Source of the DNA: Promethearchaeota archaeon
Lineage (GTDB): Archaea; Asgardarchaeota; Lokiarchaeia; Sigyniarchaeales; SOKP01
DNA: 64,000 nucleotides
Assembly: GCA_030599585.1 (NCBI GenBank)
Contig: JAUVNS010000010.1
Location: forward strand, 32,001 to 96,000
Direction of reading: 5' to 3'
Positions within the stretch are counted from its first letter, which is position 1. Each line of letters starts with the position of its first letter. This document shows positions 1-37,810 of the stretch, piece after piece. Made by a program: the position numbers and the translations under genes. The notes below the pieces were generated by a model. That model worked only from the letters and a program-made list of their open reading frames with translations. It was not told the origin of the DNA and ran no database searches.

Positions 1-775
1 CGAGGCAGTTATGAGAACAATATGTGCAAATATGCCACTTGAATTAATTATTAGAGAAAGAAGAGAGATGATTGATCATGTCATGAAAGATTTACACGAA
101 TTATCGGCAGATTGGGGTATTTTAATCGAAACATTCGAAATATTGGAAGTTATAATCGTTGAGGCCGAATTAAAAAAGAACATGGAAGCTGTTAAGCAGG
201 CAGTTGAGTATCAAAAAGCTAGAATTGCAAAAGCAGACGCAGAACGTGAATCAAAATTGCGAGAACTCGCAGTTCAGAACGAAACTGGTACTCAAGAGCA
301 ATTAGTTCAGAGAGAAATTGAACTTGGGAGGAAAGATAAAGAAATCGCAATTGCTGAGAAAGAACGCGAGCGTAAAAAGATTGAAGCCGATGGTGAACGG
401 CAAAGAGTTGTAATTGAAGCCGACGGTCAAGCTTATGCGATTAAGAAAAATTTAATTGCTCAAGCAGAAGGTGAGGCTGAAAGCATAAGACAACAAATGC
501 TTGCACAAGCGGAAGGATTCCAAGAACAAGTAGATGCCATGAGCAACGCCGATCAAAGGTTCCTGGCAGTTCAATTAACTAACATTTTACCTGAGATATT
601 TAAGCATTTAAGCCCTGATAAAATGTTCATTATGGGTAATGGAGACGAGGCGTTTAGCTCTCTTTCAAAAGCGATTTTGCCATTTCTGCAACTGTTGCCT
701 GAATACTCTGATAAGATAAAGAATTTCTTAGGAAACGGAGATTTGAAGTCAAAAGTTAAAGAATTAATAGTCTAG
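1..775 (+). CDS. SPFH/flotillin (band 7) family protein, 5'-truncated by window edge
   Basis: C-terminal SPFH motif (WGILIETFEILEV) followed by an AE/AEA-rich coiled coil typical of flotillins; the frame is open upstream of the ATG at 11. Confidence 0.8.
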   Translation, partial: EAVMRTICANMPLELIIRERREMIDHVMKDLHELSADWGILIETFEILEVIIVEAELKKNMEAVKQAVEYQKARIAKADAERESKLRELAVQNETGTQEQLVQREIELGRKDKEIAIAEKERERKKIEADGERQRVVIEADGQAYAIKKNLIAQAEGEAESIRQQMLAQAEGFQEQVDAMSNADQRFLAVQLTNILPEIFKHLSPDKMFIMGNGDEAFSSLSKAILPFLQLLPEYSDKIKNFLGNGDLKSKVKELIV

Positions 776-6401: not shown

Positions 6402-7265
6402 TTGGTTGAGAGTATATTGGGAACGCAAGTATTCAAGATATTACCAGATGGCAACACAGAAGAAATCAAAACAGAAGGTCCTATAAAAGATATTCTTAAA
6501 GGGGAAGAATGTTACATATTAGTCTCTGACGAGTACCGTAAAGTTTATTTGTGGAAGGGAGTTAACAGTAATGTAAGATCTAAATTTATTGGTGCTAAAA
6601 GGAGTCAAGACATACGTGGGCAAGTAGGCATGCACTTTGGCGTAGTACCCCTTGACGAAGGCGAGGAAGATCCTGACTTTTTAAAACTTATTGGTGGAAA
6701 AACCGAAGGTGGGATCGCTAAAGAGATTCAAATGGAAATTAGCACCGCAAAAGTAAGCGCACCATCTGTACATCCTTTGAGAGATAAAGATCCGTTCGGT
6801 GTACCAAAACCCGCAGCAGGTATGAACATTGCGGGCTCCAAGGATAGACGCTCTCAAAATAACGGTCCCTTGTATACTGGCAAAGAATCGTTCGCAGCAT
6901 TATCTCAAGAAGAAACTCACGTCAATTTTGACGAAATAATGCAAAAACTAGAAGAAATTAAAATTCCAGATGGGTTCGAAAGAGAATTGATTATTATTGG
7001 GGACCACGCCTATTCTGTTGTTGAAAAAGTTCAAAATTTTTTAGGGAAAAAACAAGTCTCCAAAGAAATTTCCAAGGTTGGAGCTATCCCAGAAGGAGTC
7101 TTTTTTGCCGAGGAATATTGTCCTAGAATTTTATCAGAAAATGGTAAGATTTTAGCAATAGAATTTCTTAAACGGACAAGTGGTCCAATAGACGCAAAGG
7201 TAGAGTTCAAATCTAAGAAAGAAATCTTAAAAGATCAGATTAAAACTCAGTTAGAATATAAATAA
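6402..7265 (+). CDS. gelsolin-domain protein with additional C-terminal domain
   Basis: ECYILV...VYLWKG..S...KF.GA.......EGEEDPDFLKL matches the gelsolin repeat consensus. Confidence 0.8.
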   Translation: MVESILGTQVFKILPDGNTEEIKTEGPIKDILKGEECYILVSDEYRKVYLWKGVNSNVRSKFIGAKRSQDIRGQVGMHFGVVPLDEGEEDPDFLKLIGGKTEGGIAKEIQMEISTAKVSAPSVHPLRDKDPFGVPKPAAGMNIAGSKDRRSQNNGPLYTGKESFAALSQEETHVNFDEIMQKLEEIKIPDGFERELIIIGDHAYSVVEKVQNFLGKKQVSKEISKVGAIPEGVFFAEEYCPRILSENGKILAIEFLKRTSGPIDAKVEFKSKKEILKDQIKTQLEYK

Positions 7266-7370
7266 TCTATATATTTCTACCTATTTCATTCAATTGCTAT
7301 TTTTATTAAAATTCTTAAATAAAATTAACTATTAAGAATTATCTTCTGAATTAGTCGCTTGTTTTAAATA

Positions 7371-7432
7371 AAACGATCATTCTAAAAATATGGTATCTTA
7401 AACGATCATTCTAAATATGGAAAATCTTAAAC
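7371..7432. repeat. imperfect 29-bp tandem direct repeat (core AAACGATCATTCTAAA x2)
   Basis: 16-bp core identical at 7371-7386 and 7400-7415. Confidence 0.8.
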
Positions 7433-7546
7433 TTTAAATCGATTTAACCTAATATTTTTATAATATAAATATTTAAGTCCAAAAATTATATTTTATATTA
7501 ATAAATGAAGAATTAACACCTCAATCAAAAGCCAGAGATTATTTAA

Positions 7547-7936
7547 ATGAGCGATTTAACTCAAGACCAAGCCCATAGTCTTTCTAAATTTCTTGGAAAT
7601 ATTACAGAACACACCGAATTAGAAGCACTTGCATTAGTTACGAACGAAGGTCTACGACTTGCTTTTTCATGTATACCGGATTACGATGTAGACCCCGATT
7701 TATTTTCAAGTTTAAGCGCTGTAGTAATGCAGAGTGGGCATGATGCGATCGATTCTTTAGGATATAACAATTTATTAGAAGTGGTTTTAAGGGGAAGTAA
7801 TGCCTTTATTATCTTAAGTGGAGCTGGAAGATTCTTTTTAATGGGTGCTAGTAGAAAGATCGAAGATTTGGGCAAAATTGTTACCGTTTTTCGCTATTAC
7901 GCTGGCGAAATCGGAAGTAGGTATCCAATTCAATAG
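7547..7936 (+). CDS. Roadblock/LC7 domain protein
   Basis: ALALVTNEGL...DPDLFSSLSA...LLEVVLRGSNAFIIL...LGKI pattern; 129 aa. Confidence 0.85.
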   Translation: MSDLTQDQAHSLSKFLGNITEHTELEALALVTNEGLRLAFSCIPDYDVDPDLFSSLSAVVMQSGHDAIDSLGYNNLLEVVLRGSNAFIILSGAGRFFLMGASRKIEDLGKIVTVFRYYAGEIGSRYPIQ

Positions 7937-8000
7937 TTTCTGAGCAGATTTTTCAAAAATTATATTTATTACGATAAAAACATATTGATAATGATTATTT

Positions 8001-10271
8001 ATGTCTGAAATCAAAATTTTTGTTGATGTAACCGAAAGCTCATCCAATAAAGTAGTTATTTGTCAAGAAAATGCCACTAAACTAGGAATAAAAAGTGGCG
8101 ATTCTATAGAAGTTTTTAATTTAGATAATGATAAAACAACAACTGCCGTAGTTGAAATTTCAAATATGGTATTAGATTTTGCTGGTCAAGTTTCTAAGGA
8201 CATAGTCGATTCACTAGAATTTAAGGGCGTTGAATTATTACTTCGGCCAATGAGCAGTGCAGAGTTGCTTACTCCTAAAATACAAATACCGAAAGTCCCC
8301 AGTGTCAAACCGGTAGCAACACCACCGCCAAGACCAACGCAATCTACATTAACACCTTTACCAACAAGACCTACTCAAATGCAAACCCAAAAACCAACGC
8401 CATTACCTCTTCCTACTCAACACCCAGTACCACCTATAAGCGGACATGTTCCACTTCCCACCAAAACACCCGAACCAACGCCACCACCACAAATAACCCC
8501 CCCACCAAGTCTACCACCTACGCCAATTCCTATACCTACCCCACCACCACAACCTACCTTAGCACCTACACCTCAATTGAGCCCTACCCCCATACCCCCT
8601 TCACCAGTGCCCTTACCACAAGCTCCGCCACCTCAAATGATCCCCCCTTCTCCGAGTCAAACACCTCTTCCCACTATTGGACAAGAAGTGGGAGTTCCAA
8701 TTGCTCCTGCCGATCCTTACCCTAATAGAATTGATGTCAACATGTTAAATAGTCAAAAGAACGGTATAGTATTAACTCCCGTGATAAATGATTCTATCGA
8801 AGGTGGACGAATTCAAGTGAGTGGTTTTGTAATTCAACAGTTAGGATTAGGACAAGGTATGCTTATTGGTTGGGAAGATCCTCTCACGCGAGCTGTGGGT
8901 TCCGCTAGAATTGATCAAGCAACAATTGCTCCCACCGAAATTCGAATGAGTAGGGATACGAAAGAAGATACTAATGTTTATAGTCAACAAATTGTTGTTT
9001 ACTCTACTGAACCCCCCATCCAAAAAACATCTGAACTTATGTTAGAAGTACAATCACAACCTAATTTAATGGGTTATGCTCTTGTAAGCCCTCGAACACA
9101 ACATACGCTCTCACTTGTCCAGGATAATGTTCTTGCGTTTGAAGATGAACTTACTGGAGCTGTTGGAGCAGGTAAAGTAGAAATTTTAGAATCTGTTCCC
9201 GACAACACCATTATTATAGATAGCGAGATTTTAGAGGCGTCAGGGATTGGAAGTTTCGAAGTAAAAGTGTATAAAAACTTGCGACCAATTATTCCCCTAC
9301 AAAACATATCATTAGGTATTTCACCAATCTCAGGTGAAAATATGTGGGAAATTATTAGCACGGCGCGACAAAATGTAGATTCCTTGAAAGGTTGGCTAGC
9401 AAACTATGTAATTTTTAAAGGGATTAAGCTTAGATGGAACGCAGTAAATATTGCGTGTTCAATTTTAACGACTACTCCAGATTTGACAGGGGATATTCTA
9501 GCCACAGTTAACGAAAATACGGCAATTAATCTGAGCCCAACGGGACTAGTACCTTTTAACGCTATTTTGATAATAGATATTAGCCGTTCGATGATGGCCA
9601 GGGATGTACTCGTCCAAAACATAGCCCCTGCAATTGAGGGCATTAAAGCAGCTATGGAATCTCCAGAAATTCAAGAATTCTTAAAACATTTTAAAGCAGG
9701 TGTTAACATTCCAAGGAGAATATCTGCTGCTTTTGCAGCTGTTCTATTCTTAAGCGAAAAGGTTGGACGTGGATTTGGAGAAAAAGTCTCAGTGATTAGA
9801 TTTGCGGACGAAGCTCAGATATTACCGTTTGGAAGCAGTTACTACATGGATTCTGCTAGCGGTAAGAAAGGCGTATTAGAAGATGCTGCACGCATGATTG
9901 TTGACCGAATTGGAAATAGTTACGGTCAATCTACGAATATGGGAAGTGCTATGGTCAAAGCGCATCAAGTTTTGACTGAATTTGATAAGCTCAGCCTTGG
10001 TAATCCGCAGCCTACTATGATCATACTCTTAACAGATGGGATTCCGACAGATGGAGATGAGTTTCTCAAAGCTATTAAAATGTTTGCAGAAAATCCAAAT
10101 GTTGTAATATATATTGTCGGTCTTGGAAATCCGGATGATCAAATGATGACAAGGGCGGCTGTATTGTGTGGTGGAGAGTATTTCAAACCAGACGATGCAG
10201 GAGAATTACTAATTTGGTATTCTAAACGAGCTCGAGATTTAACTGTAAAAATGAAGGCTCATAAAGATTAA
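8001..10271 (+). CDS. protein with Cdc48-N-like (double-psi beta-barrel) repeats, Pro-rich linker and C-terminal vWA domain
   Basis: Three barrel-like repeats (KLGIKSGDSIEV, QLGLGQGMLIGW, TLSLVQDNVLAF); Pro-rich stretch at about aa 92-241; vWA MIDAS DISRS, STNMG, ILLTDG, YIVGLG, CGGEYF. Confidence 0.75.
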   Translation: MSEIKIFVDVTESSSNKVVICQENATKLGIKSGDSIEVFNLDNDKTTTAVVEISNMVLDFAGQVSKDIVDSLEFKGVELLLRPMSSAELLTPKIQIPKVPSVKPVATPPPRPTQSTLTPLPTRPTQMQTQKPTPLPLPTQHPVPPISGHVPLPTKTPEPTPPPQITPPPSLPPTPIPIPTPPPQPTLAPTPQLSPTPIPPSPVPLPQAPPPQMIPPSPSQTPLPTIGQEVGVPIAPADPYPNRIDVNMLNSQKNGIVLTPVINDSIEGGRIQVSGFVIQQLGLGQGMLIGWEDPLTRAVGSARIDQATIAPTEIRMSRDTKEDTNVYSQQIVVYSTEPPIQKTSELMLEVQSQPNLMGYALVSPRTQHTLSLVQDNVLAFEDELTGAVGAGKVEILESVPDNTIIIDSEILEASGIGSFEVKVYKNLRPIIPLQNISLGISPISGENMWEIISTARQNVDSLKGWLANYVIFKGIKLRWNAVNIACSILTTTPDLTGDILATVNENTAINLSPTGLVPFNAILIIDISRSMMARDVLVQNIAPAIEGIKAAMESPEIQEFLKHFKAGVNIPRRISAAFAAVLFLSEKVGRGFGEKVSVIRFADEAQILPFGSSYYMDSASGKKGVLEDAARMIVDRIGNSYGQSTNMGSAMVKAHQVLTEFDKLSLGNPQPTMIILLTDGIPTDGDEFLKAIKMFAENPNVVIYIVGLGNPDDQMMTRAAVLCGGEYFKPDDAGELLIWYSKRARDLTVKMKAHKD

Positions 10272-10397: not shown

Positions 10398-12572
10398 ATG
10401 GTTAATAAATCTCAGAATGTGCTGTATTTAGATCACACTCAACCTCTTGAAGCTAGAATAGGTGATTTAATCTCCCGAATGACGTTAGATGAAAAAATTT
10501 CACAAGTCATTAACGATGCTGAAGGAATCGAACGATTAAATATTCCAAAATATAATTGGTGGAGTGAAGCTCTTCATGGAGTCGGATTTTCCGGTATAGC
10601 GACTGTTTTTCCCCAAGCGATAGGGTTGGCAGCAAGTTTTAATGTAAATTTAATGGCAGAAGTTGCTGATGCTATATCAACCGAAGGAAGAGCTAAACAT
10701 CACGAAGCCGTAAGAAATAATAGTAGAAAGATCTTTCAAGGATTAACATTTTGGTCTCCAAATGTGAATATTTTTCGAGATCCTCGGTGGGGAAGAGGTC
10801 AAGAAACCTACGGAGAAGATCCTTTTTTAACCTCCAAAATGGGAATAACATTTATTCAAAACTTACAAGGTGATGATCCTCGATATTTAAAGCTAGTCGC
10901 TACACCCAAGCATTACATTGCCTATAGTGGATTAGAATCTGAAAGACACTTTTTTGATGCCAAAGTTAGTAATAAAGATTTATGGGAAACATACATGCCT
11001 GCGTTTGAAGCATGTATAATTGAAGGGCAAGCAGAGGCAATTATGGGAGCTTATAATCGAGTAAATGGAGAACTTTGTTGTGCTAGCAAGTTTTTACTAA
11101 AAGAAGTATTGAGAGATAAATGGGGATTTAAAGGCCATGTTGTTTCGGACTGTGGAGCAATAAATGACATATTTAAACATCATAAAGTAGTTGAAACTCC
11201 TGAAGAGGCTGCAGCTCTAGCATTTAATAGCGGATTAGATTTGATTTGTAAAATTGGGGTGACAAGGAGAACGCGAAAAGAACGGTGGAAATGGCTCAAA
11301 GATGCTGTTGAAAAAGAGTTGCTCAAAGAGTTTACTCTCGACGAGTCGTTAAAAAATCTATTTCGAGCGAAGTTTTTACTTGGCATGTTTGATCCCCCAG
11401 AACTGGTAAAATACACGAAAATACCATACGAAAAAAATGACTGTAAAGAGCATCGCCAGCTGGCTTTAGAAGCTGCTAGAGAATCTATTGTGCTTCTAAA
11501 GAATCAAGACGGAATTTTACCGCTGAGAAAAGATGTAAACACAATTGCAGTAATAGGGCCAAACGCTGATAATCGGGACGTTCTATTGGGAAATTATAAC
11601 GGAGAACCTTCAGAATACACAACTATCCTTGAGGGGATTAAGAACAGAACTTCCCCAGATACTGAAATCTTATTTGCGAAGGGTTGTCCTTTGAAAGAAA
11701 AATCTAAAGAAGGTTTTGAAGAAGCGAAAACCATTGCTCAGAAATCCGATATTGTTTTTTTAGTATTAGGTATCTCACCGCGACTTGAGGGTGAAGAAGG
11801 TCAGGCATCACAGTCTGATCTTGGTGGAGATAGATTAGATATAAATTTACCAGGAGTTCAAGAAGACCTTTTGAAGGAAATCTTCGCCATTGGTAAGCAA
11901 ATTATTCTAATACTCACAGGAGGAAGCGCTATATCTGTGAATTTTGCACAAGAAAACATACCTGCAATATTATTTGTGTGGTATCCAGGAGAAGAGGGGG
12001 GAAATGCTGTAGCTGATGTGATTTTCGGCGACTACAATCCTGCTGGAAGATTACCGGTTACGTTCTATAAATCTATTGAACAGTTACCAGAGTTTAGGAA
12101 TTATAGCATGGAAGGGAGAACATATCGATATTTTAAAGATATTCCGTTGTATTCCTTTGGATTTGGTCTCAGTTATACTAAATTTAGATATTCTAACCTT
12201 AGTTTTTCTAATGAAATGCTAGATGTTAGTGAGACTTTAGAGGTGGAAGCTGAAATTGAAAACATAGGGGGAAGTAATGGAGAGGAAGTGATCCAACTTT
12301 ATATATCAAGAAAAGATGCTCGTTTCAGAGTACCTATTAGAGAGTTGAAAGGTTTTAAGCGCATTTTTTTAAAAAAAGATCAAAGGAAAAAAATTTCATT
12401 CAAACTAATGCCTAAAGATTTTTCAGTTGTAAATCTAAATGGAGAAAGATTTTTAGAGCCAGGAATGATTACTATATCAATCGGGGGATGTCAGCCAGGA
12501 TATGACTTAGAAAAAGACGGTTTAGTTATGAAGGATGTTTCTATTATAGGGAAGGCAAAGCACCTTGAATAA
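10398..12572 (+). CDS. GH3 beta-glucosidase/beta-xylosidase
   Basis: WSEALHG, RDPRWGRGQETYGEDP, KHY, VVSDCGA nucleophile motif, C-terminal Fn3-like domain. Confidence 0.95.
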   Translation: MVNKSQNVLYLDHTQPLEARIGDLISRMTLDEKISQVINDAEGIERLNIPKYNWWSEALHGVGFSGIATVFPQAIGLAASFNVNLMAEVADAISTEGRAKHHEAVRNNSRKIFQGLTFWSPNVNIFRDPRWGRGQETYGEDPFLTSKMGITFIQNLQGDDPRYLKLVATPKHYIAYSGLESERHFFDAKVSNKDLWETYMPAFEACIIEGQAEAIMGAYNRVNGELCCASKFLLKEVLRDKWGFKGHVVSDCGAINDIFKHHKVVETPEEAAALAFNSGLDLICKIGVTRRTRKERWKWLKDAVEKELLKEFTLDESLKNLFRAKFLLGMFDPPELVKYTKIPYEKNDCKEHRQLALEAARESIVLLKNQDGILPLRKDVNTIAVIGPNADNRDVLLGNYNGEPSEYTTILEGIKNRTSPDTEILFAKGCPLKEKSKEGFEEAKTIAQKSDIVFLVLGISPRLEGEEGQASQSDLGGDRLDINLPGVQEDLLKEIFAIGKQIILILTGGSAISVNFAQENIPAILFVWYPGEEGGNAVADVIFGDYNPAGRLPVTFYKSIEQLPEFRNYSMEGRTYRYFKDIPLYSFGFGLSYTKFRYSNLSFSNEMLDVSETLEVEAEIENIGGSNGEEVIQLYISRKDARFRVPIRELKGFKRIFLKKDQRKKISFKLMPKDFSVVNLNGERFLEPGMITISIGGCQPGYDLEKDGLVMKDVSIIGKAKHLE

Positions 12573-12675: not shown

Positions 12676-13092
12676 GTGTTCAGAATAATGAAAGAAGTTA
12701 AAATTCTAAATATTGATGAGCGCGGTAGGATCGTAATTCCACAAATTGTAAGAAAATCTTTAGGAATTACAACAAATTCACAGTTGATGATGATCAGTGA
12801 CTCAGAAGCCAAGGAAATTAAGATTACTCCAGTAGGTTTGCGGAGTGAAAGTGATCTCATTAAACTGAGGATTTCAATGGGAGACACTCCGGGAGCATTA
12901 GCTAAATTGGCAACAGCTTTTGGAGATTTAAATCTTAGCATGATGTATAGTGAGGCAGTAATTGTCGAAAAGGATAAAACTGCGGTGTGGACGGTAATCT
13001 CGGAGAGTCCAAGTTTTCCCATAGAAGAGCTACAAAAAATATTAAAAGAAAAAGGAGAAGCTCTCAAAGTTGAGATCCTTTCTTTAGAATGA
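12676..13092 (+). CDS. AbrB/SpoVT-family DNA-binding protein fused to an ACT domain
   Basis: IDERGRIVIPQIVRKSLGI (AbrB) and DTPGALAKLATAF (ACT); ATG at 12688 is an alternative start. Confidence 0.85.
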   Translation: MFRIMKEVKILNIDERGRIVIPQIVRKSLGITTNSQLMMISDSEAKEIKITPVGLRSESDLIKLRISMGDTPGALAKLATAFGDLNLSMMYSEAVIVEKDKTAVWTVISESPSFPIEELQKILKEKGEALKVEILSLE

Positions 13093-13130
13093 GTGAATGT
13101 TGACAAAAAAGTGAGTGTTAAGCAAATCAA

Positions 13131-13859
13131 ATGGCAAAGAAAAAAAAGAAAGATAAAGAAAAGAGCAAAGTTGAATCTCCTACTCCGAATCTAGATAATG
13201 TGTTAAAGTCGTCAAAGAAAACCCAATCTACTTTACATGGATTACTTAAAGTAGTCACCGAAGAAAAAAGTTTTATCTCTCCGGATGAGAAAGAAGAAAA
13301 GATAGCCCCACAACTTTCATATGAAACTAAGAAGCAAATTGCTGAAGATTACGCCATGGAAAAAGTTCCGCTTTCAGAAGGAACACCCCTTAAGAAGAAA
13401 ATCCCCATTTCAGAAAATTCTGAAGCAGTAGAAAGTTCAGAAAATGCTGATGCTCAAACATCAAGTACTACTAAAACACCTTCATTCTCAAAGAAAGAGA
13501 ACATCTACGAAAAGTTAACTGTATTTTTTGAAGAAATATTTGATGGGTATGTAGATAGATATAACCAGTGGGAAAATTCTATATCCTCCATTCTTTCAAT
13601 CCTTAGGAAAATGAGGAAAATTACAAAAAAAAATACGGAGGAACTAGTCACCTCAGTAGGTGGTCTTTATGAAAAAATCCATTATAATTTGGATCAATTC
13701 AAATTAAAAAGAGACGAAGTTGAAAAGATTACCGATGTAGATGTTGAATCTATGTCACATGAATTTAAAAAAGTACTAGGATTATTAGAATTACAAGTGA
13801 AAGAATATCAATTTAAAAAGTTATCAGATGAGTTCGTTCATCAGCAGCAATCATTCTGA
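13131..13859 (+). CDS. hypothetical protein, disordered N-terminus and helical/coiled-coil C-terminus
   Basis: 242-aa ORF; Lys-rich start, heptad-like C-terminal half. Confidence 0.7.
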   Translation: MAKKKKKDKEKSKVESPTPNLDNVLKSSKKTQSTLHGLLKVVTEEKSFISPDEKEEKIAPQLSYETKKQIAEDYAMEKVPLSEGTPLKKKIPISENSEAVESSENADAQTSSTTKTPSFSKKENIYEKLTVFFEEIFDGYVDRYNQWENSISSILSILRKMRKITKKNTEELVTSVGGLYEKIHYNLDQFKLKRDEVEKITDVDVESMSHEFKKVLGLLELQVKEYQFKKLSDEFVHQQQSF

Positions 13860-13913
13860 TATAATTTATTGTTTTTTAATGCTCTCGCACTAATAAACTT
13901 AATAAGTAGAATC

Positions 13914-15098
13914 ATGGCAAATACTGAGAACAATTATTTAATTCCATTAATCCTCGATATTGGAAGTGATAATTTCAGATTAGGATGGGCAGGAGGAGAT
14001 TTTCCGGATATTATTGCTCCTAGTGTTTATGTTGATATTACTGATTATCTTTTTACTTCTGATATAAGCGGATCAGACACTATTAGTGGTTTAGAGGAAA
14101 TATTTCTTGATACTGATAAGCAAACTCAATTAGTTGGTTTTGATGCGCTTAAATACAAAAACATCTTGAAAATTCGAGAGTTTAGTAAAAAGAAGAATTA
14201 TAACATTCTTTCCAAGTTTTTTCTCCATTACTACCAACAATTAAACATTCCGGTGGAATCGCATTTCAAACAACCATTAATAATAATAACTCCCTTCTAT
14301 AAATCGGAATTAGAAAAAACAAAACTCCAAGATGTATTTTTTAATTCTTTAAATTTCCCCTATGTTTTGTTTTTACCCGAAAGTCAAGCGATCCTGTCGA
14401 CATTACAAAAATCTAGCGGAATCATCGTGAATATCGGGGAATCTTACACATCAATATCTTCAATTTTTCATGGATTTACCAACTTAATGGCAAGAGATAT
14501 GTTTCCAATAACAGGAAAAAAAATTACTAGTTATCTCCTAAATTTAATTTTAAGCAAGATAAGCTCCTCAAAAAATACCTACCTCGATAAAACAATTGCT
14601 AAAGAGATCAAAGAGAAATTATCCCTTTGCGTCCTCGATCCTACCGGAGAAAAGAAAAGAGTTAAAGAAGGTTTAACCAAATACGATCGAATCGTGGATT
14701 TACCAGATGGTAGTAAATTAAAATTGAATTCTGAGCGATTTCTCTTATCAGAACCTCTAATGGATCCTAAGATCATTCATATCGATTACATGGGATTAGC
14801 AGAAGCTATTTCGAAAGTAGTAATGTCGTGGGACAGAGAGAATTGGGAGGAACTCCTTTCAAATGTTATACTTTCAGGAGGGAGTAGTGTGATTACGGGA
14901 TTAAGCGAAAGAATCGAAGTTGAATTGCAAAGATTTTTTTCAGATAAGTTGGGACCAAAAATAAAAGTAGTAGCAGCCTCCGGAAGAGAAAATATGGGTT
15001 GGATTGGAGCTTCTGTTCTATTTTCAAAAGATCAATTAAAAAAAGGATGGATTGAGAATCCTTCTCATCAGGAGTTAGAGCAACAACAAGCTGATTAG
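13914..15098 (+). CDS. divergent actin-related protein
   Basis: LILDIGSDNFRLGWAG, NIGES, EIKEKL, LPDG, ERFLLSEPL, VILSGGSS, WIGASVL; ATG 13914 preferred to TTG 13869. Confidence 0.92.
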   Translation: MANTENNYLIPLILDIGSDNFRLGWAGGDFPDIIAPSVYVDITDYLFTSDISGSDTISGLEEIFLDTDKQTQLVGFDALKYKNILKIREFSKKKNYNILSKFFLHYYQQLNIPVESHFKQPLIIITPFYKSELEKTKLQDVFFNSLNFPYVLFLPESQAILSTLQKSSGIIVNIGESYTSISSIFHGFTNLMARDMFPITGKKITSYLLNLILSKISSSKNTYLDKTIAKEIKEKLSLCVLDPTGEKKRVKEGLTKYDRIVDLPDGSKLKLNSERFLLSEPLMDPKIIHIDYMGLAEAISKVVMSWDRENWEELLSNVILSGGSSVITGLSERIEVELQRFFSDKLGPKIKVVAASGRENMGWIGASVLFSKDQLKKGWIENPSHQELEQQQAD

Positions 15099-15132
15099 AC
15101 AATTTCAAAAAGTTTTAAAAAAATATGAATTA

Positions 15133-17721
15133 GTGGAAATAATGGTTATTAAGTTAAGCACGCGATCAGAATTCTTAAAGGAATTCCAACAGAAAATTAT
15201 TCAAGGAAGAAAACTATTACATACTTCAAATCATCTTTGGGCAGATAGATTACTAACTGATTTGTATTTTGATATCGAAAAAACTGAATGGCTCGATATC
15301 CAAAAAAAACACCAACTAATAATGATTATATCAAATTCTTGGTGGATGTATATCAATTCTTTGATCCGTAGGACTGACGAAGGTATTGATATAGATTTTA
15401 TTAGATATATTGATGCATACAAACGCTTTTTCTCGTTTTTGTCTAAATTAGATGATTTTTACTTACTCAACAATTTTGCAACTAACTTACTTAAATCGTT
15501 TACTAAAATGGATTCGTTATCTCAATCGGGTATAACAAAATTTATAAATTCATTTTGCGTTAAAGTAAGTGAAAGGGAAAACTACATCAAACTAATTGAA
15601 TTGCAGCTAGTTTTGATGTATTTAAGGAAATCTGTCCTCCCTCAAGAGTTTTTTCATTTAAGTATGGAAGTTTTAGGGAGAACGATTTTTAAACTCGAAC
15701 CTGGGAAACGGGCTCTATTTCTTTATGTCTTTATAGAAAATGTGAACGAAAATTTTCAACTTATGGAGGATTCTGAAGAATTCGTAAAGTCAATGATTAA
15801 AATCTTGGTAAATAGAATCCCCGGTTATTTAAAGAACGAATTTAGTAATTTAGGTAAGATTTCAATTAACGAACGAAATTTTAACACAATTTTAGTGGAT
15901 TTAGAGGAATTAATATATTACCTAAACAACATTGGAGAGCATTCTTGGATAATAACCGTCATCAAAAATCTATTTTCTAAAATTCACGCGTACCAATCAT
16001 ATGGAGATGCCGTCACTTATATCAGGAAATTTATAGATTTTGCAATTACGAGAAATAGATTCGAAATTGCGTTCCAAATCTACGATTTTCTCGAGGACCT
16101 GTTCTTGTACCAGACGGATCTTGGATACGATAACATTCTGATTGAACTTTGGGTTGAGGCGTGCAAAAAATTTGTAGAAATGAAGGAGAAAAAGTATCTT
16201 CTCCAATCTATTGAAAAGTTAAATACACATTTGAAAATTCCTCAAACTAATGCTCAATTATACCACTTCTTTTATACAAGTAATTTCTTATGGAAATTTA
16301 AGTCACTATTTTTCTCGTTAGAGCAAAAAGATTACTGGCGAATGATGTTTTATCGTGTGCTATATGAGCAAAAAGATTTTAATCTCGCTCAAAAAATATT
16401 ACCGTTTTTAGAGAAAAACTTGAGGAACGTAATTAGTGATCCACTTTCTTTATATAACGAGACTGAATCACTTAGAAGAGAAATTTATTCTTTTGAAGAG
16501 GAAAACTTACTTTTTACAGGGTTAGAGGAAGGATTTGTAATAAAACAGATGATTTTTAGGATCAACCATGATGGTTTAATTTCTATTCGGATGATATCTG
16601 TTGATGAAAAAATTGTGGAAGGAACAATTTTCAACGAATATTGGAACGATGCACATATAATAGATATTTATAATGACATTTTCTCCTACAATCAAGAAAA
16701 AAAATATGACTTTAGCGTAAAAGAATTCGGTAGATTACTATACGTATTTCTCCCAATTAACATTCGCACTTTTTTAGAGCAGTTTGAGATTAAGTCTTTG
16801 AATATTACACCTGAAATTTATTTTATTTTAGATGAAATGACGATTCCTTTCGAATTAGTTTATGACAATAATTTTTTCTTATTAAAATATTCCATTGGGT
16901 ATATTATTGGAGAACCACCTCTTGGAGGGGTTGCTTTTGGGCACGATATGGTTGAAAAAGAAGGAAATCTAACGAAGGTCAATGTTCTGATCGTCGATTC
17001 TATAAATAGCACAGGACCTATAAGATGGAACGCAGAAACTAAATCTAAAGAACTAATATTTCCTTTTGAAGCGGGAATTAATGAATTTAATTATATTACT
17101 GAATTTTTCAACGGTCGCGAAGAAGTTAATAACATAGCGATCTTAGTGGGCCCCGATTCTTCTCGAGATAAGATCCTATCTCATATAGAAACAGGATCGA
17201 ATCATATCATTCATTTTGTTGGAAATATTTTTTATTCAAAGTGGAATCCGCGAGACAGCTTTTTCCTCACCAACGATAACGAAATAGTAACATTTAATGA
17301 AATTAACAAGTCAATACAAGCGAACCCTAACGCAGAAAAACCGTTTTTATTTTTTAATTCTCAAATTTATGATATTGAAGGTAAAAAGTTAAAGAATGTT
17401 CTGCGTACGTTTGGAGAAATTGTAGAATATTTCGATTATGAGAGAATTACGGGGATAATGTCCAGAAATTATCCGATTTTTAACGATGAGACGAAGGAAA
17501 TAATCGCTAATTTTTATATCAACTTATTCAATGATAAAAGTCAGGGAGTTTCCCTTGTGAAAGCACGGCAAGCATGTATGGCAAATAAAATGACTAAACT
17601 TGTAGAGAAGAAATTTAACGAGTTATCCGCAGAGGAAGGCGTAAAGAATATTGATCTAGAAGGATCCTTAGCGATATCAAGCTATATGCTTTTTGGCAAA
17701 CCTTGGAAAAAATTAAGTTAG
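15133..17721 (+). CDS. alpha-solenoid protein with C-terminal CHAT (caspase/separase-like) domain, catalytic dyad substituted
   Basis: CHAT motifs FGRLLY, IPFELVYD, FLLKYSIG, IIHFVGN (cf. HFAGH), FFNSQ (cf. LNAC), FYINL, SLVKARQ, YMLFGKP. Confidence 0.75.
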   Translation: MEIMVIKLSTRSEFLKEFQQKIIQGRKLLHTSNHLWADRLLTDLYFDIEKTEWLDIQKKHQLIMIISNSWWMYINSLIRRTDEGIDIDFIRYIDAYKRFFSFLSKLDDFYLLNNFATNLLKSFTKMDSLSQSGITKFINSFCVKVSERENYIKLIELQLVLMYLRKSVLPQEFFHLSMEVLGRTIFKLEPGKRALFLYVFIENVNENFQLMEDSEEFVKSMIKILVNRIPGYLKNEFSNLGKISINERNFNTILVDLEELIYYLNNIGEHSWIITVIKNLFSKIHAYQSYGDAVTYIRKFIDFAITRNRFEIAFQIYDFLEDLFLYQTDLGYDNILIELWVEACKKFVEMKEKKYLLQSIEKLNTHLKIPQTNAQLYHFFYTSNFLWKFKSLFFSLEQKDYWRMMFYRVLYEQKDFNLAQKILPFLEKNLRNVISDPLSLYNETESLRREIYSFEEENLLFTGLEEGFVIKQMIFRINHDGLISIRMISVDEKIVEGTIFNEYWNDAHIIDIYNDIFSYNQEKKYDFSVKEFGRLLYVFLPINIRTFLEQFEIKSLNITPEIYFILDEMTIPFELVYDNNFFLLKYSIGYIIGEPPLGGVAFGHDMVEKEGNLTKVNVLIVDSINSTGPIRWNAETKSKELIFPFEAGINEFNYITEFFNGREEVNNIAILVGPDSSRDKILSHIETGSNHIIHFVGNIFYSKWNPRDSFFLTNDNEIVTFNEINKSIQANPNAEKPFLFFNSQIYDIEGKKLKNVLRTFGEIVEYFDYERITGIMSRNYPIFNDETKEIIANFYINLFNDKSQGVSLVKARQACMANKMTKLVEKKFNELSAEEGVKNIDLEGSLAISSYMLFGKPWKKLS

Positions 17722-17824
17722 AAAAATGATTCTAAAATTATGTAGGAATACCTTCGTTTTACTTAAACTTAATTAAAAGTATTTATATTAGAAAATTAAA
17801 TTTAGAAGCATAAAATGGTCTAAA

Positions 17825-18364
17825 ATGTCAGATAGGATAATTGAACTCCGAGTTGAAAATGCCAGACTCAAGAAAGAGGTACAAAATTTAGAAAATAAAG
17901 TATTATCGTTAGTAGGAATGATTAGTTTAGAATCTTCGGGAGGTCTTGAACGCAAGAATGTTCTCAATGAGCATTTAATTAATCTAATTACTTCAACATC
18001 CATTCAACTTAATGTTGTTTCACCTAAGATCGATAGATTCTACAGCATCGAACTTAAAAAGCTAACTAAGAAAGGAATTCCAATACTAATTATTACTAAC
18101 GATAGAGGAAATATTCCTAAAATATACCAAGAAATCTATGATGATTTAAAACAAACTTCAGGAATAAGCATAATTAATAACCCGAATGTCAGGTATTTAT
18201 TAGTTTTCAATGCTGAACAAGGAATTTATTCGGGGGGGTCATTAGATAAAGGAGAATTAGAAAAATCTGTCCTTATTGTTACACGCATCAAAGAAAGCGC
18301 TAAACTCAGAAAAATCGCTGAAATATTTAGTTTAATGCTCCCATCCTTTATGAGAGGAAAATAA
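17825..18364 (+). CDS. coiled-coil plus degenerate PLD-fold protein
   Basis: VVSPKID, KKGIPILIIT, GIYSGGSL resemble PLDc, but the HxKxxxxD motif is replaced by RYLLVFN. Confidence 0.6.
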   Translation: MSDRIIELRVENARLKKEVQNLENKVLSLVGMISLESSGGLERKNVLNEHLINLITSTSIQLNVVSPKIDRFYSIELKKLTKKGIPILIITNDRGNIPKIYQEIYDDLKQTSGISIINNPNVRYLLVFNAEQGIYSGGSLDKGELEKSVLIVTRIKESAKLRKIAEIFSLMLPSFMRGK

Positions 18365-22005: not shown

Positions 22006-22620
22006 ATGCCAAGTAGACGAGGAGACGGAACTCTTGTTTTTAAAATTTGTTTTTACGGTCCTTCACTGGGAGGGAAAACGACGGCATTAGAATGGGTGTA
22101 TAACAGGGAAGGTTTAGCCTCAGGTGATATGCAACAAATTCAGGACCCTACCGGGCGAACCTTGTTTTTTGATCGAGTAGTAGCTAGAGTTTCTAATGTA
22201 GTTTTTCAAGTTTACACTGTAGCAGGGCAACGCAGACATAAATTTCAACGTCAAACAGTTTTAAAGGGTACAGACGCTGTGATATTTACATGGGACAGCC
22301 TAATAGATCAGTGGGGCGAGAATATTTGGTCTCTTAAAGAACTACTCAAGTTTTATGGAGATAAATTAATTCCACCAGCACTTTTTGATCCACCTGAAGT
22401 ACCAATAGTTGTTTTAGCAAACAAAAGAGATTTAGAAGATATCGTGGAGATTTCCAAGTTAAGGCAAGTACTGGATACAGCAAAACTTAACCACTGCTTA
22501 ATTTACGAAACTATAGCTATAACTGGAGTTAATGTAAAAAGAGCTTTTGTTTATGCCGCTCGACAAGCTGTGCTTAATCACTATAAGAAACTTTCGGGTA
22601 AATCGATGGAAGCTTTCTAA
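22006..22620 (+). CDS. MglA-like small GTPase (Ras superfamily)
   Basis: GPSLGGKTT, RTLFFD, YTVAGQ, NKRD. Confidence 0.9.
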   Translation: MPSRRGDGTLVFKICFYGPSLGGKTTALEWVYNREGLASGDMQQIQDPTGRTLFFDRVVARVSNVVFQVYTVAGQRRHKFQRQTVLKGTDAVIFTWDSLIDQWGENIWSLKELLKFYGDKLIPPALFDPPEVPIVVLANKRDLEDIVEISKLRQVLDTAKLNHCLIYETIAITGVNVKRAFVYAARQAVLNHYKKLSGKSMEAF

Positions 22621-23239: not shown

Positions 23240-24166
23240 TTATTCTTCTTGACTTTCCTGCTTTCGTATCCTAAATTTGACGACTTTAAGGGCAAAATTT
23301 ACGATTTCTTCTATATTTTTCCATCGTTCTTCATCTAGTTTTCTTTTCATCCAATAATATAGTTCTTGCTCAATCGGAACGGTTAGATAAATTGGTTGGG
23401 ATAACTGTGCGTCTTGGGAATGGGCTTTATTCATTAGCCAAGAAATGATGTTAGAAATCAATTTGAAGTTATCAGCAGCGTGTATGCCATATAAAGCGTG
23501 AAACCCCGAAAATAGAGACAAATTTCCAATAGCTACGATTTTTCCCAAACCATAATGCCCTATCGCTATTATGGGAAGGCTATCTACGGGTTCGTCAAAC
23601 CATTCCTCTCCGTCAAAAATCTTATGCCAGGCAGCTTCTCTTGAAGAAAAAGCAATTGCAGAAACATCAATGTCTTCAGTTTCGATAGATTCATCGATCT
23701 CAAGGGTACAACCATTAGAGTGAATAATTTGGGTGATATCTCGCGTAATAAAATGTTTTCTAAAATCCTTAATTATTGGACGAGATATGTCCTTTGAAAA
23801 ATTTTCATTATCAAAGAGCTGATCGGGATTGAAGGTAATACCAAAATTTTTAGTTAGTTCATTCAAATTGTTTTTATTTTCGATATCTCCTCCTTTATCA
23901 TTTATAATAAGAAGAGATCCTCCATCTTTAACATATTTGGTTAAGTATTCAATTTCTTCAGCGCTTATATGGGAATCCGCAAATGGAACTCCAATTATAA
24001 ACACATTATAATCTGCTAATTTTTCGTAAGTAAGTCCTGCTTCAATTTTTCCTAACTTTAAATCTGAATTGAATAAATATTCTATAAAATCATTAAAGCC
24101 AGGGTCTTCAATCGTTAACTTATTCTGATGAGAATAATCGAAGCCGATATTATATTCAGTTTTCAT
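23240..24166 (-). CDS. GIFT (GldG/IFT52, DUF4350-like) domain protein with short C-terminal domain
   Basis: FDYSH, LTYEKLADYNVFIIGVP, EEIEYLTKYVKDGGSLLII, NLNELTKNFGI, GKIVAIGN, DNFKLISNIISWL. Confidence 0.7.
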   Translation of the reverse strand: MKTEYNIGFDYSHQNKLTIEDPGFNDFIEYLFNSDLKLGKIEAGLTYEKLADYNVFIIGVPFADSHISAEEIEYLTKYVKDGGSLLIINDKGGDIENKNNLNELTKNFGITFNPDQLFDNENFSKDISRPIIKDFRKHFITRDITQIIHSNGCTLEIDESIETEDIDVSAIAFSSREAAWHKIFDGEEWFDEPVDSLPIIAIGHYGLGKIVAIGNLSLFSGFHALYGIHAADNFKLISNIISWLMNKAHSQDAQLSQPIYLTVPIEQELYYWMKRKLDEERWKNIEEIVNFALKVVKFRIRKQESQEE

Positions 24167-27297: not shown

Positions 27298-27344
27298 ATT
27301 TACAACCTTAATCTAAATTTTTAATAAAAAAATAAATGAACAAA

Positions 27345-37453: not shown

Positions 37454-37810
37454 CTATAGAAGACCTTTTAGAGCGTCTCCTGCTGCTCCTAACTTCAGAT
37501 TAATTATACCAAGTTTCGCATCGGTGGTAGCAATAATTGTTAAGATATTTCCCTCAACTTCACTAAAGAGTATTTTACCTTTTGCACTTTCAATTATTGC
37601 ATTGAAAAATTGGCCCTGTTCCAATTCTTTTGTTGCTCTTTGAGAGGCTTTCAGAATAAGGGTAACCATAGCTGCAACGGCTTCTGGATCGACCCACCCC
37701 GGTAAAGCGCTCCCTTTAATTAAGCCAAATTTCTCAATAATGGCTGCTCCATGAACTCCCTTTATTGATTTAAGACTTTCCAGTACTTGTTTAATCCTTT
37801 CTTCACTCAT
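37454..37810 (-). CDS. Roadblock/LC7 (MglB-like) protein
   Basis: GVHGAAIIEKFGLI...VAAM...ELEQG...IIESAKGKILF...AKLGII. Confidence 0.88.
   Translation of the reverse strand: MSEERIKQVLESLKSIKGVHGAAIIEKFGLIKGSALPGWVDPEAVAAMVTLILKASQRATKELEQGQFFNAIIESAKGKILFSEVEGNILTIIATTDAKLGIINLKLGAAGDALKGLL

What the first reader, a model, noticed from the sequence alone, without database searches (positions are those of the whole stretch)
7547..10271. Roadblock gene next to a Cdc48-N/vWA protein: candidate archaeal counterpart of Ragulator-GATOR1 (DEPDC5/Iml1) parts
Seen: a Roadblock/LC7 gene lies 64 bp upstream of a 756-aa protein with three double-psi-barrel-like repeats, a Cdc48 domain-2-like segment (about aa 432-513) and directly after it a vWA domain with intact MIDAS (DISRS...T...TDG). 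There is no AAA domain. Known: eukaryotic DEPDC5/Iml1 starts with a Cdc48/PEX1-N-like domain followed by the vWA-like SABA domain, and acts on Rag GTPases held by Roadblock-fold Ragulator subunits. Inference: the pair may be a prokaryotic precursor of that GTPase-regulating scaffold. An MglA-like GTPase (22006) and a second Roadblock (37454) are in the same window. The alternative is a Cdc48/AAA or proteasome adaptor.
Basis: partly seen in the sequence, partly recalled or inferred. Interest (0 to 1): 0.85.

Follow-up and report, generated by a model that had tools for sequence, protein, structure and literature searches.

The report
Asgard Cdc48N-vWA protein, bystander Roadblock neighbour
Both genes are real, but they belong to two different undescribed Asgard gene sets that meet only in this lineage: the Roadblock goes with the gelsolin-like gene upstream, and the Cdc48N-vWA protein goes with a ligase and a hydrolase; its two-domain layout still echoes the front half of the eukaryotic nutrient-signalling protein DEPDC5.

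Summary
Observation confirmed: a Roadblock gene (7547-7936) lies 64 bp before a 756-aa protein with three double-psi barrels, a Pro-rich linker, a Cdc48 domain 2, an intact-MIDAS vWA and no ATPase. The Ragulator-GATOR1 reading mostly fails. Adjacency holds in this Lokiarchaeia order (70/70 close loci) but in 0/18 loci from eight other families. The Roadblock's deep partner is the upstream gelsolin-like gene (adjacent in 28/60 genomes, 8 families). The vWA protein shares an identical family profile with a GCS2-fold ligase and neighbours an amidohydrolase, sometimes fused to it. In one genus where ligase and hydrolase were not found, the vWA has decayed (21% identity) although the Roadblock stays adjacent. 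Predicted vWA-hydrolase binding has weak support (0.38, best control 0.00). DEPDC5/Iml1 is the top whole-core fold match (TM 0.41, 10% identity), but the N-domain is closer to p97 (Z 17.3 versus 10.5), and SHEN, DEP and CTD are absent. The GTPase and second Roadblock in the window are expected by chance. Best reading: docking subunit of a ligase-hydrolase module; DEPDC5 ancestry about 30%. The scan noted both modules before on other DNA.

The parts
6402..7265 (+). Gelsolin-like protein (N-terminal gelsolin domain plus a conserved C-terminal domain of unknown fold); the Roadblock's conserved partner gene
   Evidence: Pfam Gelsolin E 0.016; best PDB match Loki 2DGel 7whg, E 2.6e-8; directly upstream of the Roadblock orthologue in 28 of 60 genomes from 8 other families
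7547..7936 (+). Roadblock/LC7 protein (RB1), near-universal Asgard family
   Evidence: Robl_LC7 E 2e-6; weak match to Asgard Roadblock structure 7f8m; homologues in 273 of 301 genomes, including families without the vWA gene
8001..10271 (+). 756-aa ATPase-less Cdc48N-vWA protein, long Lokiarchaeia form
   Evidence: single copy in the genome
8001..8255 (+). Double-psi barrel repeat 1 (aa 1-85); least conserved folded part
   Evidence: hhalign to repeat 3 98.7%; profile hits TER94/Cdc48 N, E 9e-5; 22-48% identity across the class
8268..8720 (+). Proline-rich linker (aa 90-240, 38% Pro, longest run three Pro)
8748..9014 (+). Double-psi barrel repeat 2 (aa 250-338)
   Evidence: hhalign to repeat 3 97.3%; HMM repeat match
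9030..9545 (+). Complete Cdc48/p97-type N-domain: barrel 3 (aa 344-426) plus domain 2 (aa 432-515)
   Evidence: AlphaFold2 pLDDT 89; Z 17.3 to p97-N; Z 10.5 to DEPDC5 NTD, rmsd 3.8, 157 aligned
9549..10244 (+). vWA domain (aa 517-748) with intact MIDAS D526-S528-S530, T645, D679
   Evidence: best fold matches bacterial vWA 4fx5 Z 23.2, TFIIH p44 Z 22, Rpn10 Z 20, ArnB Z 20
22006..22620 (+).
   Evidence: 11-18 kb away within the family, on another contig or 579 kb away in the sister family; one of 77 Ras-family matches
37454..37810 (-).
   Evidence: no BLAST alignment with RB1; 32-37 kb away within the family, on another contig in the sister family

Best explanation
The two genes belong to two separate ancient modules that became neighbours in one Lokiarchaeia order. 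The Roadblock forms a pair with the gelsolin-like gene upstream (linkage shown; binding and actin regulation inferred). The Cdc48N-vWA protein is the docking subunit of a three-gene module with a GCS2/YbdK-fold ATP-dependent carboxylate-amine ligase and a metal amidohydrolase, which in this genome lie on another contig (G000:C41:8094-11354) (co-inheritance shown). Inferred mechanism: the ligase joins a carboxylate, probably a glutamate, to an amine on a target; the hydrolase removes or deamidates it; the vWA protein binds the hydrolase, clamps an acidic residue through its Mg2+ MIDAS and holds a beta-grasp or peptide partner in its p97-type N-domain cleft. The two extra barrels on a proline tether are a Lokiarchaeia addition that adds reach or valency. 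The substrate is unknown.
For: Family profiles of the vWA protein and the ligase are identical: the same 10 families have both and the same 20 have neither; profile searches of 50 mostly negative genomes agree. The amidohydrolase lies beside or within about 6 kb of the vWA gene in 13 of 18 loci from eight other families; no RB1 homologue lies in any of them. Two families carry an inactive-looking amidohydrolase-Cdc48N-vWA fusion. Genus g10, including a one-contig genome, keeps a 57-60% identical Roadblock adjacent, but ligase and hydrolase were not found and the vWA is 20-21% identical, against 61-79% in relatives, with the MIDAS altered. Ligase and hydrolase catalytic motifs are invariant. 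Predicted vWA-core/amidohydrolase complex: weak support, score 0.38 against best control 0.00; runs agree in at least 53% of contacts; partner pLDDT at least 79. The mark was reached by 58 of 80 solved complexes and 2 of 110 mismatches, but at 0.60 or under by only 7 of the 80 and by both mismatches. Gelsolin-Roadblock adjacency: 28 of 60 genomes in 8 families.
Against: In this family the vWA gene is no longer beside the ligase and hydrolase, yet it has stayed behind the Roadblock in 70 of 70 close loci and in the sister family, even when inverted or decayed. Two loci of family f29 and three paralogous loci have neither enzyme nearby. No substrate or tag gene was identified. GCS2-fold enzymes also act on small molecules, so protein tagging is not shown. 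Kin are not independent, so the profile reflects perhaps a handful of loss events. The complex score is in the range where passes are often wrong.
Confidence: 0.58

Rival explanations
1. One reading: RB1 and the vWA protein form a precursor of the Ragulator-GATOR1 scaffold that regulates a small GTPase.
For: DEPDC5/Iml1 chains are the top six whole-core Foldseek hits. Adjacency is kept throughout the order. A weak longin-like gene precedes the vWA gene in family f3 and a P-loop GTPase heads the operon in f24. The genome encodes 13 Rag-like GTPases.
Against: No RB1 homologue near the vWA gene in 18 loci of eight other families; 910 kb apart in G075. RB1 occurs in many families without the vWA gene. 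The vWA decays while RB1 stays in g10. The protein ends after the vWA, with no SHEN, DEP or CTD. In GATOR1 SABA binds NPRL2 and the catalytic arginine is in NPRL2 (PMC8534245). No Rag-like gene on this contig. The cited GTPase and second Roadblock are chance-level and unlinked in the sister family.
Confidence: 0.07
2. The protein is a ubiquitin or Ubl receptor for Cdc48 or the proteasome: a Ufd1/p97-type N-domain joined to an Rpn10-type vWA, delivering or decoying tagged substrates.
For: The N-domain is closest to p97 N (Z 17.3) and also matches Ufd1 (Z 12.4). The vWA matches Rpn10 at Z about 20. Two homologues carry a C-terminal ubiquitin-like domain, and one of them sits beside a Ubl-E1-E2-JAB cluster. 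Two Ubl-domain genes lie inside one trio locus.
Against: No AAA, proteasome or ubiquitin gene lies beside the window's gene or in the orthologous loci read. The Ubl links come from divergent paralogues. This reading does not explain the co-loss with ligase and hydrolase, although it is compatible with the best explanation if the tag feeds proteolysis.
Confidence: 0.18
3. In Lokiarchaeia the gelsolin-like protein, RB1 and the long vWA protein form one actin-linked unit, with the proline linker and extra barrels as a cytoskeletal scaffold.
For: The trio is kept in both families of the order. An actin-related gene lies 3.6 kb downstream in 65 of 80 close loci. The gelsolin-like gene also sits near the vWA module in family f21. 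Barrel 2 is the best-kept part in g10 (29-30%).
Against: The block also holds housekeeping NnrD and other genes, so it is family-wide gene order. The long form exists in f3 without RB1 beside it. Proline runs are at most 3-5 residues, short for profilin (own knowledge). The linker is lost in g10.
Confidence: 0.12

Closest known systems
DEPDC5 / Iml1 (Sea1), N-terminal NTD-SABA half of GATOR1 / SEACIT (PDB 9o5e, 9v0j, 8ae6, 7t3a)
   Same: A two-lobed Cdc48/NSF-type N-domain followed directly by a vWA-fold domain, with no ATPase; the only solved proteins among the top hits aligned over the whole 417-aa core at moderate rmsd (E 2e-12, TM 0.41).
   Different: 10% identity; rmsd about 8, so the domains are oriented differently; N-domain Z 10.5 versus 17.3 for p97; no SHEN, DEP or CTD; no IML1 Pfam match; two extra barrels and a proline linker; genomic partners are a ligase and a hydrolase.
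Cdc48/p97, NSF and PEX1 N-domains; Ufd1 N-domain
   Same: Closest fold of aa 340-518 (Z 15-17; Ufd1 12.4); profile hits to Cdc48 N at E 1e-6.
   Different: No AAA domain or Walker A; fused to a MIDAS vWA.
Intracellular vWA adaptors: Rpn10, TFIIH p44, Sulfolobus ArnB (8s05), bacterial BatB
   Same: vWA fold, Z 20-23; conserved MIDAS.
   Different: None carries a Cdc48 N-domain; no MoxR gene was seen in the loci read.
GCS2/YbdK carboxylate-amine ligases; Pup ligase and depupylase PafA/Dop (same fold class, own knowledge)
   Same: The partner ligase matches PF04107 and YbdK (1r8g, 1tt4; E 2e-12) with invariant catalytic-type residues.
   Different: It is paired with a TIM-barrel amidohydrolase and a Cdc48N-vWA protein; no Pup-like tag gene was identified.
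Asgard Roadblock proteins (Tran et al. 2024, PMC10933270) and Asgard gelsolins (Akil et al. 2020, PMC7444086)
   Same: RB1 is a Roadblock-fold protein weakly like 7f8m; the upstream gene has a gelsolin domain.
   Different: The passages searched do not describe a gelsolin-Roadblock gene pair; Tran et al. note that MK-D1 GTPase genes are generally not in operons with Roadblock genes.

Membership tests
DEPDC5/Iml1 | Two-lobed Cdc48/NSF-like NTD at the front | tested here: met
   AlphaFold2 model of aa 340-518 aligns to DEPDC5 residues 3-168, Z 10.5, rmsd 3.8, 157 aligned
DEPDC5/Iml1 | vWA-like SABA domain directly after the NTD | tested here: met
   Same domain order; whole-core Foldseek alignment of about 420 columns, TM 0.41
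DEPDC5/Iml1 | N-domain closer to DEPDC5 NTD than to other Cdc48-N domains | tested here: not met
   p97 Z 17.3, Cdc48A 16.2, PEX1 15.5, NSF 15.1 against DEPDC5 10.5 and 9.4
DEPDC5/Iml1 | vWA closer to SABA than to generic vWA domains | tested here: inconclusive
   Generic vWA domains fill the lists at Z 17-23; no Z for SABA was returned
DEPDC5/Iml1 | Sequence match to the IML1 profile PF12257 | tested here: not met
   No match in the genome at E up to 1; not among the families listed for 67 homologues
DEPDC5/Iml1 | SHEN, DEP and CTD domains after SABA | tested here: not met
   The protein ends about 8 residues after the vWA; domain list from PMC8534245
DEPDC5/Iml1 | NPRL2/NPRL3 longin partners bound through SABA | tested here: inconclusive
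   PF06218 not found in the genome, but the search rang in no control either
Ragulator (LAMTOR2-5) | Roadblock fold | tested here: met
   Robl_LC7 above cut-off; shared by 16 matches in this genome
Ragulator (LAMTOR2-5) | Roadblock heterodimers wrapped by a lipid-anchored LAMTOR1 | not testable with these tools
   Needs biochemistry; no partner Roadblock gene is linked
Ragulator (LAMTOR2-5) | Association with Rag GTPases (gene linkage as proxy) | tested here: not met
   13 Rag-like genes, none on contig C8; linkage is only a proxy
MglA-MglB | Roadblock gene adjacent to its small GTPase gene | tested here: not met
   The GTPase is 14 kb away and unlinked in the sister family
Cdc48/p97 AAA ATPases | N-domain of double-psi barrel plus domain 2 | tested here: met
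Cdc48/p97 AAA ATPases | AAA ATPase domains with Walker motifs | tested here: not met
   No Walker A; no AAA Pfam match
MIDAS vWA adaptors | DxSxS...T...D metal site | tested here: met
   Intact in 61 of 67 homologues
Pup-type ligase/eraser tagging systems | GCS2-fold ligase with catalytic residues | tested here: met
   Partner gene on C41
Pup-type ligase/eraser tagging systems | Dedicated small tag protein and linked proteasome genes | tested here: inconclusive
   None recognised in the loci read; ORFs under 70-80 aa were not examined
Pup-type ligase/eraser tagging systems | Covalent modification of proteins | not testable with these tools
   Needs an enzyme assay

The most novel reading that the evidence does not exclude
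The Asgard Cdc48N-vWA core is the archaeal ancestor of the DEPDC5/Iml1 NTD-SABA half. It began as the docking subunit of an amide ligase/hydrolase module and was later recruited to scaffold the longin GAP of GATOR1. The stronger version, with this Roadblock as its partner, has a probability of about 0.07.
Probability: 0.3. Interest if true: 0.8.

Novelty: new variant of a known kind. Interest (0 to 1): 0.55.

Why it matters
The origin of DEPDC5, the GATOR1 subunit for which Liu et al. (10.1101/2020.10.19.343400) report no Asgard candidate in the passage read, is open. This family gives a concrete, highly conserved candidate for its front half that can be tested by structure. The partner analysis points to an undescribed ATP-dependent ligase/hydrolase module kept across ten Asgard families, with a lineage that looks like a natural knockout. 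It also redirects the Roadblock to a gelsolin-like partner, a testable link between Roadblock proteins and Asgard actin control. It warns that Roadblock and GTPase co-occurrence in a Loki window carries little information.

Tried and rejected
Single-sequence PDB search gave only a weak vWA hit. DEPDC5 was absent from the top 50 VIA-align rows for the whole core, which the vWA domain dominated. The ESM Atlas returned only the family's own cluster and generic vWA proteins; the gelsolin C-terminal domain returned only unnamed Asgard clusters. The repeat-2 profile alone found no barrel in the PDB. The bacterial-type promoter/terminator scan was at shuffle level and uninformative for an archaeon. 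Literature searches found no paper on an Asgard DEPDC5 homologue, on the ligase-hydrolase-vWA set or on the gelsolin-Roadblock pair; the library lacks most subscription papers. The GATOR1 structure paper was not held, so whether SABA keeps a MIDAS was not checked. I could not confirm that the gelsolin-like gene is 1DGelX: domain X was described as coiled-coil, and this C-terminal part looks beta-rich by eye. The single complex job went to vWA plus hydrolase, so RB1-vWA and RB1-gelsolin were not folded. Genome families are anonymous, so class names beyond the window's own lineage are not asserted.
Full report
Observation. The window is G000:C8:32001-96000. Its close relatives are labelled Promethearchaeota/Lokiarchaeota. 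ORF 7547-7936 (129 aa) is a Roadblock/LC7 protein (E 2e-6) and ORF 8001-10271 (756 aa) starts 64 bases later. The large protein has barrel 1 (aa 1-85), a 38% proline linker (aa 90-240), barrel 2 (aa 250-338), barrel 3 plus domain 2 (aa 344-515) and a vWA (aa 517-748). Barrels 1 and 2 match barrel 3 by profile at 98.7% and 97.3%. AlphaFold2 folds aa 340-756 at pLDDT 93. The MIDAS is intact in 61 of 67 homologues.

Family. The protein is strongly conserved in its own lineage (82-97% over aa 240-756 among the best 120 hits). Homologues occur in 177 of 301 genomes of the phylum. Outside this class they are a core of about 410-500 aa with one N-domain and the vWA. The two extra barrels and the linker are limited to the window's class. 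Homologues also occur in Thermoplasmatota.

DEPDC5 test. For the whole core, Foldseek ranks GATOR1 and SEA chains first to sixth (E 2e-12, TM 0.41, rmsd 8-9.5, 10-11% identity), just ahead of Cdc48 and NSF (E 4.5e-11). This supports shared domain order. Domain by domain the link is not special. The N-domain alone scores Z 17.3 to p97, 15.5 to PEX1, 15.1 to NSF and 12.4 to Ufd1, but 10.5 to DEPDC5. The vWA scores Z 20-23 to a bacterial vWA, TFIIH p44, Rpn10 and ArnB. The IML1 profile finds nothing in the genome. DEPDC5 has SHEN, DEP and CTD after SABA, SABA binds NPRL2, and the catalytic arginine is in NPRL2 (PMC8534245); this protein ends after the vWA. It is built like the front half of DEPDC5 but is not a member of that family. 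Common descent and independent fusion both remain open; I put descent at about 0.3.

Roadblock linkage. In the window's family the Roadblock precedes the vWA gene in 70 of 70 loci with enough flank, as part of a longer conserved block: NnrD, gelsolin-like, Roadblock, vWA, AbrB-ACT, unknown, actin-related, CHAT. The sister family keeps gelsolin-Roadblock-vWA too. In 18 loci from eight other families no RB1 homologue lies within about 6 kb. In G075 the two genes are 910 kb apart. The RB1 family is found in 273 of 301 genomes, including many families where the vWA gene was not found. What follows the Roadblock everywhere is the gene before it: the gelsolin-like gene is directly upstream on the same strand in 28 of 60 genomes from eight other families, with gaps down to 2-3 bases. 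The cited GTPase and second Roadblock are expected by chance (77 and 16 matches in the genome; P 0.64 and 0.18) and are unlinked in the sister family. None of 13 Rag-like genes is on this contig.

The vWA protein's partners. In 13 of the 18 distant loci an Amidohydro_2 gene lies next to or near the vWA gene, and a GCS2-fold ligase lies in six of them, or about 10 kb away in family f9. Two families carry a fusion of hydrolase and Cdc48N-vWA in which both sets of motifs are eroded. The ligase has the same family profile as the vWA gene: present in the same 10 families and not found in the same 20 (profile checks 87, 88). In this genome ligase and hydrolase form an operon on contig C41 with a 628-aa gene; in two genera of the sister family that operon abuts gelsolin-Roadblock-vWA, which suggests how the modules met. 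Both enzymes keep invariant catalytic-type motifs. Genus g10 separates the hypotheses. In its three genomes, one of them a single contig at 93% completeness, ligase and hydrolase were not found. The Roadblock is still adjacent and 57-60% identical. The vWA has fallen to 20-21% identity, against 61-79% in relatives, with the MIDAS altered and the linker lost. Selection on the vWA therefore tracks the enzymes, not the Roadblock. This is one event, and kin are not independent. A predicted complex of the vWA core with the hydrolase gave weak support: 0.38 against a best control of 0.00, runs agreeing in at least 53% of contacts, partner pLDDT at least 79. That mark was reached by 58 of 80 solved complexes and 2 of 110 mismatches, but at 0.60 or under by only 7 of the 80 and by both mismatches.

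Mechanism. Shown: domain anatomy, co-inheritance, fusion, co-decay. Inferred from family knowledge: GCS2-fold enzymes activate a carboxylate with ATP and join it to an amine (YbdK, GshA, PafA); TIM-barrel amidohydrolases cleave amides; MIDAS sites clamp an acidic side chain; p97-type N-domains bind beta-grasp and short peptide partners. The likeliest reading is a reversible amide-tagging module in which this protein is the dock or reader. Ubiquitin-like fusions in two homologues, one beside a Ubl-E1-E2-JAB cluster, and two Ubl genes inside one trio locus hint that tagged or Ubl-bearing proteins are the clients. The substrate is unknown.

Novelty and score. I found no paper describing the family, the three-gene module or the gelsolin-Roadblock pair; coverage is limited. 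Earlier notes of this scan reached both modules on other DNA. I had found the module and the pair before reading the notes on each. The parts are known domains in a new arrangement, so I file it as a new variant of a known kind. Interest 0.55: the headline Ragulator-GATOR1 claim falls, but an undescribed, testable module and a DEPDC5-like architecture remain.

Noticed in passing
window 6402-7936; L134, L135, L137, L138, L139, L145: Gelsolin-like gene followed directly by RB1 in 28 of 60 genomes from 8 other families plus the window's order; candidate two-protein actin-regulating module.
   Followed up: partly
L131:6092-11269 (G000:C41): Operon of a 628-aa protein with no Pfam match, the GCS2-fold ligase with a lysine-rich N-terminus, and the amidohydrolase.
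   Followed up: partly
L125:1672-4329, L122:9492-12107: Amidohydrolase fused to Cdc48N-vWA with eroded metal motifs in both halves, divergent from the intact pair; a HEAT-repeat gene is convergent on the other side.
   Followed up: partly
L133:8403-10712, L144:6181-8436 (genus g10): Decayed vWA protein that keeps three barrels; barrel 2 is the best-kept part, so it may have a separate role.
   Followed up: partly
L150:3360-9698: A Cdc48N-vWA-ubiquitin-like fusion lies beside a Ubl, E1, E2, JAB cluster; this genome has a similar cluster on C28 (about 98-107 kb) without the vWA paralogue.
   Followed up: partly
L152:4480-10476: vWA, ligase and amidohydrolase together with two genes bearing N-terminal ubiquitin-like domains and no terminal GG.
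   Followed up: partly
L141:471-7902, L143: In family f24 a P-loop GTPase-like gene and a 304-aa gene head a co-directional run with hydrolase, ligase and vWA.
   Followed up: no
L119:2544-3425; G070:C150; G064:C231: In family f21 the gelsolin-like gene lies divergent beside the hydrolase-vWA-ligase cluster with no Roadblock after it.
   Followed up: no
window 12676-18364: Conserved run of AbrB-ACT regulator, 242-aa protein, actin-related protein (Actin E 6e-48), 862-aa CHAT-like protein and a PLD-like protein, kept in about 65 of 80 close loci.
   Followed up: no
window 10398-12572: A glycoside hydrolase family 3-like gene (by sequence appearance) interrupts the block in only 9 of 80 relatives: a variable insertion site after the vWA gene.
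   Followed up: no
window 23240-24166: 308-aa protein with an IFT52 GIFT domain (E 6e-12).
   Followed up: no
window 11-775 and 24622-29393: SPFH/Band 7 protein end; bacterial-type DNA gyrase A with the likely B subunit gene beside it.
   Followed up: no
L134:1949-3634, L145:1944-3617: In family f5 a 560-aa Rab-like GTPase fusion precedes NnrD-gelsolin-Roadblock.
   Followed up: no
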